Positions 638 to 8,510 of a stretch of DNA of 64,000 bases are shown piece by piece; position 1 is the stretch's first letter; each line of letters opens with the position of its first letter. The stretch lies in assembly GCF_009914755.1 (NCBI RefSeq), contig NC_060941.1. The stretch is one strand, 5' to 3'. The notes beneath the pieces are model-generated. The model saw only the letters and a list, made by a program, of their open reading frames with translations, made no database searches and was not told where the DNA came from. A program made the translations under genes and the position numbers. The DNA is from the human T2T-CHM13v2.0 reference genome, Homo sapiens.

Positions 638-5612
<4,975 letters not shown>

Positions 5613-6172
5613 TGGAGAGACACCCGGGGCCTGGCCACGCTCTGGGGCAACTGGCACCAGGAGCTGCTACACCTGGGTAGGAGAGAGGCAGGCCATGCCA
5701 GCAGTGTGGGGTGAGGCCTCCAGCTACTTGTTCACACGTTGGGCACTAGTGGGTCCACATCTTGCAGGGGGTGAGTGCCCGATGGACTAGGGCCAAGGCC
5801 TGGTTGACAGACGGCCCGTGGGGCCCGGTGTCACTCACAGCTCCATCTCTTTGTTTTGAATGTCCATTCTGAGTCTCAGCCCAGGTGGACCTTAGGAAGG
5901 GCTGGATCCCTGTCCCTGAACACCAACTACCGAGACAGCTGATGAGGCTGGCTCAGTGTGTGACGGAGGCCCCCGGGAGTCAGCAGAGCCGAGCGTACAG
6001 TGCACATCAGGCAGAGCAGGCCACGGGCAGGGACGACGCATCGGGACAGGGCTCTGCAGGGGACCGTGACTACAGGCCAGCTGTGAGTGGTCCCCTGCAG
6101 AGGCTGCCCACCCAAGGTTTGGTTGGGGTGAAACATGATGACAACACATACACTTAAGAAGGTGGGAACCGG

Positions 6173-6316
6173 GGGCCGGGCGCGGTGGCTCACACCTGTA
6201 ATGCCAGCACTTTGGGCAGCTGAGGCGAGTGGATCACCTGAGGTCAGGAGTTCGAACCAGCCTGGCCAACATGGTGAAACTGCATCTCTACTAAAAATAC
6301 ACGAAGAAAAAAAAAA
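6173..6316 (+). repeat. Alu left monomer in the CCDC137 3'UTR
   Basis: ggccgggcgcggtggctcacacc…ctactaaaaatac followed by an A-run; gtgggaac flanks both sides. Confidence 0.85.
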
Positions 6317-6585
6317 CAGTGGGAACAGAGTTGTCACCTACCTAACAGGGCTCTGAGAGAGCCGGGAGGCCCAAAGTGGCTGGAAGAAGGTAAAGGAAAA
6401 ATCCTGTCTTGGGCTCAAGGTCACAGAGTGGGGCCCAGGGGGAGTTCCTGCTGAGGGCAGGGCCTTGCCAGGCTTCAGTCTCCAGTGCCAAAGGAGGAAA
6501 TGCCCAGGCTGTCAGCATTTCCAGATGAGAGCAGAAGGGAGAAGCTTAAACCCAAGTCACACATCCAGCAATGGAGTCCGACAGC

Positions 6586-6825
6586 CCAGCACCATCTGGG
6601 AACTGAGAAGCACCTCTGCCCGGCCCCCACACCGTGTGGAAAGTGAGGAGCACCTCTGCCTGGCCGCCACCCCGTCTGGCAAGTGAGGAGCGCCTCTGCC
6701 CGGCCGCTGTGCAACCTTCCAAGTGTGAAGTGACAGCCTTGTGTGTGATGTTTTCTGCCTTCCCCAAGTTTGCACTTTCGACATTAAAGTTTACTTTTTA
6801 GTTAAAAGTTTTAAATTGGAGAATA
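6586..6825 (+). mobile_element. SVA2-like sequence: 3 x 40-bp SVA-type VNTR units plus unique 3' tail
   Basis: Exact 40-bp period (…tctgg(g/c)aa(c/g)tgag(a/g)agc(a/g)cctctgcc(c/t)ggcc) over 6586-6705, then gctgtgcaaccttccaagtgtgaagtgacagcc…gacattaaagtttacttttt, resembling the recalled SVA2 3' unique region. Confidence 0.75.
6783..6788 (+). terminator. Probable CCDC137 polyadenylation signal (ATTAAA)
   Basis: ATTAAA about 1.17 kb after the stop codon, followed by T-rich sequence; lies inside the SVA2-like tail. Confidence 0.7.
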
Positions 6826-7159
6826 TATATTTAAAGTCAGGGCTGTTTTCCTCTTATGGGCATGTTTCCCACCTTGTGATGGACCTGGCGGCCCCAGCCC
6901 TCGCGTTGGGATGTTGTTTTTGCAGCAGCCAGAACTCAGCCCCAGATCACAAGCAGCAGCTGGAAGGGGGTGGCCTTTCCCTGGGAAAGGGCTGGGACGG
7001 CAGCGGGTGGCACTCCCACTCGCTCAATGCCTTTGGTTTTGGGTGTCAGATCGGCCCGTGTATGGCTAAGCAAAGGGATCCCACAGGGCTGGGAAAGTGC
7101 TCATGCTCTCCACTGCATCCATGATTCTCAGGTTTTAGCTGCTGGAAGGGAAACCCCTG

Positions 7160-8172
<1,013 letters not shown>

Positions 8173-8281
8173 TGATTTTTTTTGAAGAAAAAAATTAATG
8201 TTACAATTTCACATACCGTATAATGCTATCCTTTGATTAGCGTTTAGTTTGATGGGAACTCCAAACTGTTAAAGAAAATTC

Positions 8282-8510
8282 AGGCCAGCTGTGGTGGCAC
8301 CATGCCTGTGGTCCCAGCTACTCGGGACGCTGAAATGGGAGGTTCACTCAAACCTGAGAGGTCAAGGCCGCCCCACCATCTGGGAAGTGAGGAGTACCTC
8401 TGCCTGGCTGCTGCACCGTCTGGGCCTGTGAGCCGTGATTGTGCCTCTGCACTCCAGCCTGGGCTGTAACAGAGCAAGACCCCCATCTCTAAAACAGAAA
8501 AGAAAAAAAA
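8282..8510 (+). repeat. Old Alu monomer (FRAM/AluJ right arm) interrupted by about 1.5 SVA-type VNTR units
   Basis: ggccagctgtggtggc…cccagctactcggga…gtcaagg[VNTR 8366-8424]tgtgagccgtgatt…ccagcctggg…A-tail. Confidence 0.75.

What the first reader, a model, noticed from the sequence alone, without database searches (positions are those of the whole stretch)
6586..6840. CCDC137 3' end is an SVA2-like VNTR plus tail with no poly(A) or TSD: candidate source locus of SVA2/SVA VNTR retroelements
Seen: three SVA-type VNTR units with an exact 40-bp period, then about 120 bp of unique sequence holding the only clear poly(A) hexamer after the CCDC137 stop. There is no CCCTCT hexamer, Alu-like domain or SINE-R. 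The sequence continues into atatatatttaaagtcagggctg with no A-tail and no recognisable TSD. Established: SVA2 elements (VNTR + unique 3' sequence + poly(A) + TSD) are regarded as precursors of the SVA and LAVA VNTR; the match of this tail to SVA2 is from my recall. Inference: either an old SVA2 insertion was exapted as the CCDC137 terminator, or this is the parental gene end whose polyadenylated RNA was retrocopied by L1 to found SVA2. The second model predicts exactly what is seen here.
Basis: partly seen in the sequence, partly recalled or inferred. Interest (0 to 1): 0.82.

Follow-up and report, generated by a model that had tools for sequence, protein, structure and literature searches.

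The report
CCDC137 gene end: likely SVA2 progenitor
The last 270 bases of the human CCDC137 gene are the one copy of the old SVA2 retroelement that shows no sign of insertion and has changed in step with the family, so it is probably where the repeat block later used by SVA elements began.

Summary
There are three 40-bp VNTR units (6590-6707), then a unique tail to 6837. The tail holds the only canonical poly(A) hexamer (ATTAAA, 6783). There is no A-tail and no target-site duplication (TSD).

The tail is a dispersed repeat. A 31-mer from it has 126 places in this genome. Dispersed copies end at 6806-6837 with poly(A), and 31 of 62 have a TSD of 10 nt or more.

New here: two CCDC137 processed pseudogenes (chr3 full length, chr1 5'-truncated) carry UTR, VNTR and tail. 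Eighty of 91 independent dispersed tails fit one nested series of eight changes. The chr3 pseudogene sits at stage 0 and the chr1 pseudogene at stage 3. Today's gene has 7 of the 8 derived states. So the gene end changed in step with the family, as a source locus would and a passive insertion would not.

Against a simple source model:
- The gene has 3 units, while dispersed arrays reach 2.8 kb.
- A last-unit marker differs between the gene and most copies.
- The two pseudogenes look equally old.

Verdict: probably the progenitor and stem locus of SVA2 (about 0.55). The main rival is an old insertion whose tail was later overwritten. Outgroup primate loci would decide; none could be reached here.

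The parts
5613..6569 (+). CCDC137 3'UTR upstream of the array. It includes an Alu-monomer-like piece at 6176-6310.
   Evidence: It occurs only three times in the genome: the gene, the chr3 pseudogene and the chr1 pseudogene. No other SVA2 copy carries it.
6570..6706 (+). VNTR: about 3.4 units of 40 bp of the SVA/SVA2 type.
   Evidence: TRF gives 6590-6707, period 40, 3.0 copies. The same three units are in the chr3 pseudogene and one unit is in the chr1 pseudogene. Dispersed copies have 0-2830 bp of such units.
6707..6837 (+). Unique tail, read as the SVA2 3' unique sequence.
   Evidence: Forty of 40 scored genome matches have 89-100% identity, from 212 first-look candidates. A 31-mer (6719-6749) has 126 places at 3 or fewer mismatches, and the reversed control has 0. 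No copy extends past 6837.
6783..6788 (+). ATTAAA poly(A) signal in use.
   Evidence: It is the only canonical hexamer in 5613-7300. It is conserved in 96-103 of 103 tails per position.
6801..6806 (+). Former second ATTAAA, now GTTAAA.
   Evidence: Position 6801 is A in 81 of 97 tails and in both pseudogenes. It is G in the gene and in 13 tails.
6806..6837 (+). Cleavage zone. The main site is 6806-6811 (RefSeq end 6807). Further sites lie near 6815-6816, 6823-6827 and 6830-6837.
   Evidence: These are the positions where the poly(A) of dispersed copies starts. The chr3 pseudogene ends at 6807 and the chr1 pseudogene at 6827.
6838..7170 (+). Unique 3' flank, U/GU-rich just after 6840. It has no A-tail and no TSD.
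   Evidence: A search with 6800-7170 returned only the gene itself: 1 match of 1 candidate. Sequence.

Best explanation
The VNTR-plus-tail at 6570-6837 is probably CCDC137's own 3' end, not an insertion. It is probably also the progenitor and stem lineage of the SVA2 family.

Proposed mechanism:
- RNAs ending at this terminator were cleaved after the ATTAAA at 6783. In earlier times a second ATTAAA at 6801 was also used.
- They were polyadenylated at 6806-6837 and copied by LINE-1.
- Most cDNAs stopped inside the GC-rich array and became 'SVA2' copies. A few ran on into the UTR and became the two processed pseudogenes.
- Substitutions fixed in the gene end were passed to later copies. This gives the nested subfamilies.

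Shown: the homology, the copy hallmarks, the two pseudogenes and the matching order of changes. Inferred: that the gene end itself was the template. This requires that its array was longer or variable in the past.
For: 1. The gene end is the only copy examined that has neither poly(A) nor TSD. It also holds all sequence up to the most distal poly(A) site used by any copy.

2. It supplies the only canonical poly(A) signal of a gene. No other lies in the UTR or in the 460 nt downstream.

3. Two intronless or truncated CCDC137 copies carry UTR, array and tail. So CCDC137 mRNA with this end was retrocopied.

4. Eighty of 91 independent dispersed tails fit one nested order of 8 changes: 6722, 6733, 6799, 6717, 6760, 6758, T-run, 6801.
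- The chr3 pseudogene has 0 of 8 derived states.
- The chr1 pseudogene has the first 3.
- The gene today has 7 of 8.

5. A tree that holds the gene and both pseudogenes together is 24.8 lnL units worse (AU p = 0.037). The free tree puts the gene among the youngest copies.

6. The gene differs from the family consensus at 0 of 89 non-diagnostic non-CpG tail sites, and its 3 tail CpGs are intact.

7. Subfamily ages fall along the series. Private divergence is 4.1% at stage 0 and 1.5% at stage 8.
Against: 1. The gene has 3 units today and had 3 when the chr3 pseudogene was made. Dispersed arrays run from 0 to 2830 bp and all begin inside the array.

2. The base matching 6680 in the last unit is C in the gene and the chr3 pseudogene. 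It is G in 73 of 78 readable dispersed copies, and C in only 2.

3. GGGATG-type units occur in 17 of 63 copies of stages H3, H5, H6 and H7. They are absent from the gene's units. This points to a long-array lineage distinct from the allele seen.

4. Three-way UTR counts of 26, 24 and 24 over 572 columns make the two pseudogenes about equally old. Yet their tails are 3 steps apart (Poisson 0.0008 at the central estimate, 0.17 at the upper bound).

5. The stem changed about three times faster than private divergence predicts (8 changes against 2.6 expected, P = 0.005).

6. Sites 6717 and 6760 recur in parallel, and 6801 does so once, so not every shared state is a unique event.

7. Today's gene is 3 steps from the stage-8 consensus and 3-4 steps from stage 5.

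8. The AU group was named after the haplotypes had been seen. The sample favours copies that resemble the gene's 31-mer.
Confidence: 0.55

Rival explanations
1. Old insertion, later overwritten. An early SVA2 copy, 5'-truncated to about 3 units, landed in sense at the end of the CCDC137 UTR and was taken over as the terminator. It lost its A-tail and TSD. Its tail was later replaced at least once, and probably twice, by sequence of the subfamily active at that time. The route would be gene conversion from another copy or a cDNA, or a second insertion into the array followed by recombination between the two tails.
For: - It explains why the arrays, the last-unit marker and the GGGATG units of dispersed copies do not match the gene.
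- It explains three stem steps between two pseudogenes of equal age, as one conversion event.
- It explains a stem that evolves faster than one neutral locus.
- Exaptation of SVA pieces as 3'UTR ends and poly(A) signals is described, and CCDC137 is on that list as 'SVA-F' (PMC3794087, abstract and one passage).
Against: - It needs complete loss of both A-tail and TSD. Stage-0 copies of the same age still show them (L070 has a 14-nt TSD).
- It needs two or more rare exchanges at one 130-bp target, each from the subfamily current at the time.
- Mosaic tails are rare among dispersed copies: 11 of 91, each at a single site.
- No trace of an earlier poly(A) signal exists.
- The 6758 state is not that of the supposed last donor.
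Confidence: 0.25
2. Founder only. The tail and a proto-array are native to CCDC137 and seeded the first SVA2 copy. From then on, one or more daughter elements with expanded arrays were the masters. The later likeness of the gene's tail to young subfamilies comes from sequence exchange or partial parallel change.
For: - No insertion hallmarks at the gene.
- Early subfamilies (H0-H2) have short arrays, 43-363 bp in the 8 copies with flanks. Long arrays appear from H3 on.
- The array evidence points to a separate long-array lineage.
- Arrays do change after insertion. Twelve duplicates of one insertion differ by up to 565 bp, and one lost its array.
- Parallel changes at 6717, 6760 and 6801 are seen.
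Against: The gene shares at least 6717T, 6760T and 6801G, and probably the longer T-run, with later subfamilies. From the observed recurrence of 2-7%, 5-11% and 1-2% per lineage, the joint chance is about 1e-4 (my estimate). So exchange would still be needed.
Confidence: 0.15
3. Ordinary passive insertion with no later exchange. The likeness in the order of changes is chance.
For: Some diagnostic sites are recurrent. Holding the gene and the chr1 pseudogene alone together is not rejected (AU p = 0.31).
Against: - Three nested changes separate the two pseudogenes, and at least three more are shared by the gene with later subfamilies. Chance is 1e-4 or less for each set, by my estimate.
- Holding all three together is rejected (p = 0.037).
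- There is no A-tail or TSD.
Confidence: 0.03

Closest known systems
SVA2 elements (Repbase SVA2; described in rhesus macaque and human)
   Same: GC-rich VNTR of 39-40-bp units fused to a short non-SVA 3' sequence. The dispersed copies found here have poly(A) and TSDs. This matches the published description (PMC3287187 and PMC4432496, passages).
   Different: The CCDC137 copy has no poly(A) and no TSD. It is joined to a gene's UTR and is that gene's terminator.
LAVA 3' progenitor locus in an intron of HSD17B3
   Same: A single-copy genomic locus proposed as the origin of the 3' module of a VNTR composite retrotransposon, still present at orthologous places (PMC5174737, passages).
   Different: That locus supplies only the 3' part and lacks the VNTR. 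Here array and tail lie together, at the functional end of an mRNA, with two pseudogenes as dated samples.
SVA-derived 3'UTR ends of human genes (Kwon et al. 2013 list)
   Same: CCDC137 is listed there with an 'SVA-F' piece in its 3'UTR that may supply a poly(A) signal (PMC3794087).
   Different: That label comes from RepeatMasker. RepeatMasker lacks SVA2 and calls such pieces SVA_F (PMC3362811, passage). The paper treats the piece as an insertion and does not raise the reverse direction.
Single-locus master genes of retroposon families (BC1 RNA gene and rodent ID elements; recalled, no call)
   Same: One expressed locus whose successive substitutions appear as nested subfamilies of its retrocopies.
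   Different: Here the candidate master is the 3' end of a protein-coding mRNA. Its repeat array does not match that of most copies.

Membership tests
SVA2 retroelement copy (an insertion) | VNTR of about 39-40-bp GC-rich units | tested here: met
   TRF gives period 40, 3.0 copies. The units align with the arrays of dispersed copies.
SVA2 retroelement copy (an insertion) | Family-specific unique 3' sequence after the VNTR | tested here: met
   Identity to 39 scored dispersed copies is 89-96%. The 31-mer has 126 places.
SVA2 retroelement copy (an insertion) | Poly(A) tail at the 3' end | tested here: not met
   There is 1 A in the 12 nt after 6837. Sixty-three of 91 dispersed copies have 8 or more A.
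SVA2 retroelement copy (an insertion) | Target-site duplication | tested here: not met
   The best repeat is 6 nt, the chance level. Thirty-one of 62 dispersed copies have 10 nt or more.
SVA2 retroelement copy (an insertion) | Match to the Repbase SVA2 consensus | not testable with these tools
   No repeat library is on hand. The name rests on published descriptions.
Canonical SVA (SVA_A to SVA_F) | CCCTCT hexamer repeat, antisense Alu-like region, SINE-R | tested here: not met
   No hexamer array lies in 5000-8500. The only Alu-like piece (6176-6310) is in sense orientation and 260 nt upstream. SINE-R was not checked against a library. The tail matches only SVA2-type loci.
Source (master) locus of a retrocopy family | No insertion hallmarks, and it contains every 3' end variant of the copies | tested here: met
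Source (master) locus of a retrocopy family | Its substitutions over time are inherited by successive subfamilies | tested here: met
   The pseudogenes sit at stages 0 and 3 and the gene has 7 of 8 derived states. AU p = 0.037. One state (6758) does not fit.
Source (master) locus of a retrocopy family | Copies carry the source's own flanking or upstream sequence | tested here: inconclusive
   The upstream UTR is in 2 loci only. No copy carries the 3' flank.
Source (master) locus of a retrocopy family | The internal structure of the copies equals that of the source | tested here: not met
   The gene has 3 units; copies have up to 2830 bp. The last-unit base is C in the gene and G in 73 of 78 copies. 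GGGATG units are absent from the gene.
Source (master) locus of a retrocopy family | Present at the orthologous place in species that predate the family | not testable with these tools
   No other primate or mammal genome is held. The own-genome search states that the genome has no relatives here.

The most novel reading that the evidence does not exclude
The 3' end of the housekeeping gene CCDC137, a small minisatellite next to its terminator, is the birthplace of the VNTR module. That module was carried first by SVA2 and then by all hominoid VNTR composite retrotransposons (SVA, LAVA, PVA, FVA). The locus acted as a single-gene master for tens of millions of years. Long array alleles gave array-truncated 'SVA2' copies, and short alleles gave ordinary processed pseudogenes.
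Probability: 0.45. Interest if true: 0.8.

Novelty: new member of a known kind. Interest (0 to 1): 0.66.

Why it matters
[quoted passage not shown] None of the passages read says where SVA2's own array and tail came from.

A named, single-copy, still-functional gene end as progenitor would turn that question into a simple comparative test. It would also give a dated example of a host mRNA 3' end becoming a mobile element. It would show a coding gene acting as a master gene.

It also corrects the printed reading of the CCDC137 3'UTR as an 'SVA-F' insertion.

In the searchable library I found no paper linking CCDC137 to the origin of SVA2:
- 'ccdc137' + 'sva': 5 papers.
- 'ccdc137' + 'vntr': 1 paper.
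- 'sva2' + 'vntr': 16 papers.
- 'sva2' as a whole word: 57 papers, 40 listed.

Three key papers were not held: Damert 2009, Ianc 2014, and Hancks and Kazazian 2010. Han 2007 was not looked up. Any of these may bear on priority.

Tried and rejected
- The 'TAASCC' group (8 tails) first looked like a stem subfamily. Seven of the 8 are among 12 loci that stem from one insertion inside an Alu, later multiplied within a larger unit. They were collapsed to one event.
- 6775C, shared by the gene with L023 and L055, was dropped as a marker. Three of 104 is within the noise of ordinary sites.
- Loss of the second ATTAAA (6801 A to G) does not clearly shift copy ends: 43 proximal to 30 distal against 9 to 2, Fisher p = 0.19.
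- The search for read-through copies carrying the 3' flank found none.
- L007 looked like a second copy without poly(A). It has a short A-run and an AT-rich repeat of its upstream flank.
- The within-array 'self shifted' identities are invalid. Free end gaps let the sequences re-align and gave 1.000. They were discarded.
- The private repeated 16-mer test shows some in-place amplification (L016, L060, L066). Most arrays consist of unit variants shared between loci, so expansion in place from 1-3 founder units does not explain them.
- Literature search returned nothing useful.
- Earlier findings of this scan were not open.

Full report
**The observation**

The window shows three 40-bp units at 6590-6707 (TRF period 40, 3.0 copies, 84% matches, score 166). 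Weaker unit-like sequence starts near 6570. A non-repeated tail follows.

ATTAAA at 6783-6788 is the only AATAAA or ATTAAA between the stop codon and 7300. It lies 19 nt before the RefSeq end at 6807. After 6837 the sequence runs into a U/GU-rich stretch without an A-run.

**The tail is a dispersed repeat with retrocopy hallmarks**

The held genome is the window's own assembly.
- A search with 6700-6840 gave 212 first-look candidates. Forty were scored. All matched, the 39 non-self ones at 89-96% identity.
- A 31-mer from 6719-6749 has 126 places at 3 or fewer mismatches. The reversed control has 0. One hundred places were listed.

I read 104 tails: 29 loci, the chr3 pseudogene, and 74 places fetched later. 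Twenty-six listed-out places and many first-look candidates were never examined. The sample favours copies that resemble the gene's 31-mer.

What the dispersed copies show:
- They stop matching the window at 6801-6812 (52 copies), 6813-6822 (6), 6823-6829 (16) or 6830-6837 (10). An A-run follows.
- Sixty-three of 91 independent copies have 8 or more A in the next 12 nt.
- Thirty-one of 62 copies with flanks have an exact TSD of 10 nt or more, against 3 of 62 in an offset control.
- No copy matches beyond 6837. The 3' flank 6800-7170 found only itself.

This is the structure published for SVA2: a VNTR fused to a short non-SVA sequence, with L1 hallmarks (PMC3287187 and PMC4432496, passages). 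I could not align to the Repbase consensus.

**The CCDC137 copy is the exception**

Its best flank repeat is 6 nt, the chance level. It has no A-run. It holds the whole sequence up to the most distal poly(A) site used by any copy. The one other copy that looked tail-less, L007, has a short A-run and an AT-rich flank repeat.

**Two processed pseudogenes**

The UTR piece 6311-6589 occurs three times in the genome: in the gene, on chr3 and on chr1.
- The chr3 locus joins the five exons that lie in the window without introns. It runs to 6807 followed by A's (83.8% identity over the last exon).
- The chr1 locus starts at 5835 and ends at 6827 followed by A's.
- The chr3 copy has the same three units as the gene. 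The chr1 copy has one unit.

So CCDC137 mRNA with this end has been copied by L1, using two of the same cleavage sites as the dispersed copies.

**The subfamily series**

Tail columns with a frequent second state define haplotypes. Twelve loci proved to be one insertion inside an Alu, later multiplied within a larger unit. They were collapsed to one, leaving 91 independent dispersed tails.

Eighty of the 91 fit a single nested order of eight changes: 6722 G>A, 6733 G>A, 6799 A>T, 6717 C>T, 6760 C>T, 6758 C>T, one more T in the run at 6751, and 6801 A>G. The other 11 conflict at one site each. An older CpG state at 6708 marks most stage-0 copies.

Private divergence falls from 4.1% at stage 0 to 1.5% at stage 8, and CpG retention rises from 0.46 to 0.70. 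This sets the direction of the series.

**The gene follows the series**

| Sample of the gene end | Derived states (of 8) |
|---|---|
| chr3 pseudogene | 0 |
| chr1 pseudogene | the first 3 |
| gene today | 7 (6758 is still C) |

The gene also has two changes of its own, 6750 G and 6775 C.

A passive insertion and its pseudogenes should form one group with private changes. Instead:
- The free tree puts the three in three different parts of the family.
- Holding them together costs 24.8 lnL units (AU p = 0.037). I named this group after seeing the haplotypes. For the gene plus the chr1 pseudogene alone, p = 0.31.
- The gene differs from the family consensus at 0 of 89 non-diagnostic non-CpG sites.

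Chance parallelism is not enough. Sites 6717 and 6760 share the context CC[C]TCC and do recur; 6801 recurs once. Even so, the joint chance of the shared set is about 1e-4 by my estimate.

**What does not fit a simple source model**

1. Dispersed arrays run from 0 to 2830 bp (L028 with L113) and all start inside the array. The gene had 3 units at the chr3-pseudogene stage and has 3 now.
2. The base matching 6680 is C in the gene and the chr3 pseudogene. It is G in 73 of 78 readable dispersed copies, C in 2 and A in 3.
3. GGGATG-type units occur in 17 of 63 copies of stages H3, H5, H6 and H7. They occur in none of 21 H0-H2 rows (the chr3 pseudogene among them) and not in the gene.
4. Arrays of independent copies of one subfamily are not colinear. 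Identity in register is 0.79-0.82, and shifted by three units it is 0.80-0.83. The control, duplicates of one insertion, gives 0.90 against 0.84.
5. UTR three-way counts are 26, 24 and 24 over 572 columns. The two pseudogenes therefore look equally old although their tails are three steps apart (Poisson 0.0008 at the central estimate, 0.17 at the upper bound).
6. The stem changed faster than private divergence predicts (8 against 2.6 expected, P = 0.005).
7. The gene is 3 steps from the stage-8 consensus and 3-4 from stage 5.

Arrays do change after insertion. The 12 duplicates range from 0 to 1227 bp. But most arrays are built of unit variants shared between loci, so expansion in place is not the whole answer.

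**Reading**

The joint pattern is expected of a progenitor on the stem of the family:
- no insertion hallmarks,
- sole terminator of an expressed gene,
- copied as mRNA,
- following the subfamily order.

Under the insertion model, each of these features needs its own coincidence. To be the template of most copies, the locus must have carried long or variable arrays in the past. This is inferred, not shown.

The main rival is an early insertion taken over as terminator, whose tail was later overwritten by conversion or by a second insertion plus recombination. It explains points 1-6. It needs loss of both hallmarks and at least two rare exchanges from the then-current subfamily.

I put the progenitor-and-stem reading at 0.55, insertion with overwriting at 0.25, founder-only at 0.15 and plain chance at 0.03.

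**Literature**

- Kwon et al. 2013 list CCDC137 as having an 'SVA-F' piece in its 3'UTR (PMC3794087, abstract and one passage).
- Lee et al. 2012 note that RepeatMasker lacks SVA2 and mislabels it SVA_F (PMC3362811, passage).
- A progenitor locus has been proposed for the LAVA 3' module (PMC5174737, passages).
- I found no paper naming CCDC137 as the origin of SVA2.
- Damert 2009, Ianc 2014, and Hancks and Kazazian 2010 were not held. Han 2007 was not looked up.

No other primate genome could be reached, so the decisive empty-site test remains open.

Noticed in passing
L047, L050, L058, L061-L064, L066, L098, L099, L107, L108 (chr1, 2, 6, 8, 9, 10, 13, 16): Twelve loci are one SVA2 insertion inside an Alu (TSD of about 10-12 nt) that was later multiplied as part of a larger unit. 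They share at least 1.5 kb upstream and about 485 bp downstream. Their arrays differ (0 and 662-1227 bp), which shows array change after insertion. What the larger unit is was not worked out.
   Followed up: partly
L036 (chr3, 2.4 kb upstream of the processed pseudogene in L035): A second, partial copy of the CCDC137 last exon (window 5471-6023, 83% identity) lies next to the full processed pseudogene. This suggests a local duplication.
   Followed up: no
window 6176-6310: An Alu left-monomer-like piece with an A-rich end lies in the CCDC137 3'UTR. It is present in both processed pseudogenes, so it is older than both.
   Followed up: partly
window 6717 and 6760, and homologous sites in the loci: C>T at these two sites recurs in unrelated backgrounds (L070, L097, L049, L059, L110, L050, L099), far more often than at ordinary sites. 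Both sites lie in the context CC[C]TCC. No cause was established.
   Followed up: partly
L006, L016, L018, L021, L059, L065, L088, L094, L102, L111: Ten independent SVA2 copies share an Alu-like 3' flank. For those whose flank was read, the insertion is at the AAAAATTAGCC stretch of an Alu. That stretch would be a favoured L1 endonuclease target (recalled).
   Followed up: no
window 6801: A>G in the gene destroyed a second ATTAAA that both pseudogenes and 81 of 97 tails still have. Copies with G end at 6801-6812 in 9 of 11 cases, against 43 of 73 with A. The difference is not significant (p = 0.19).
   Followed up: yes
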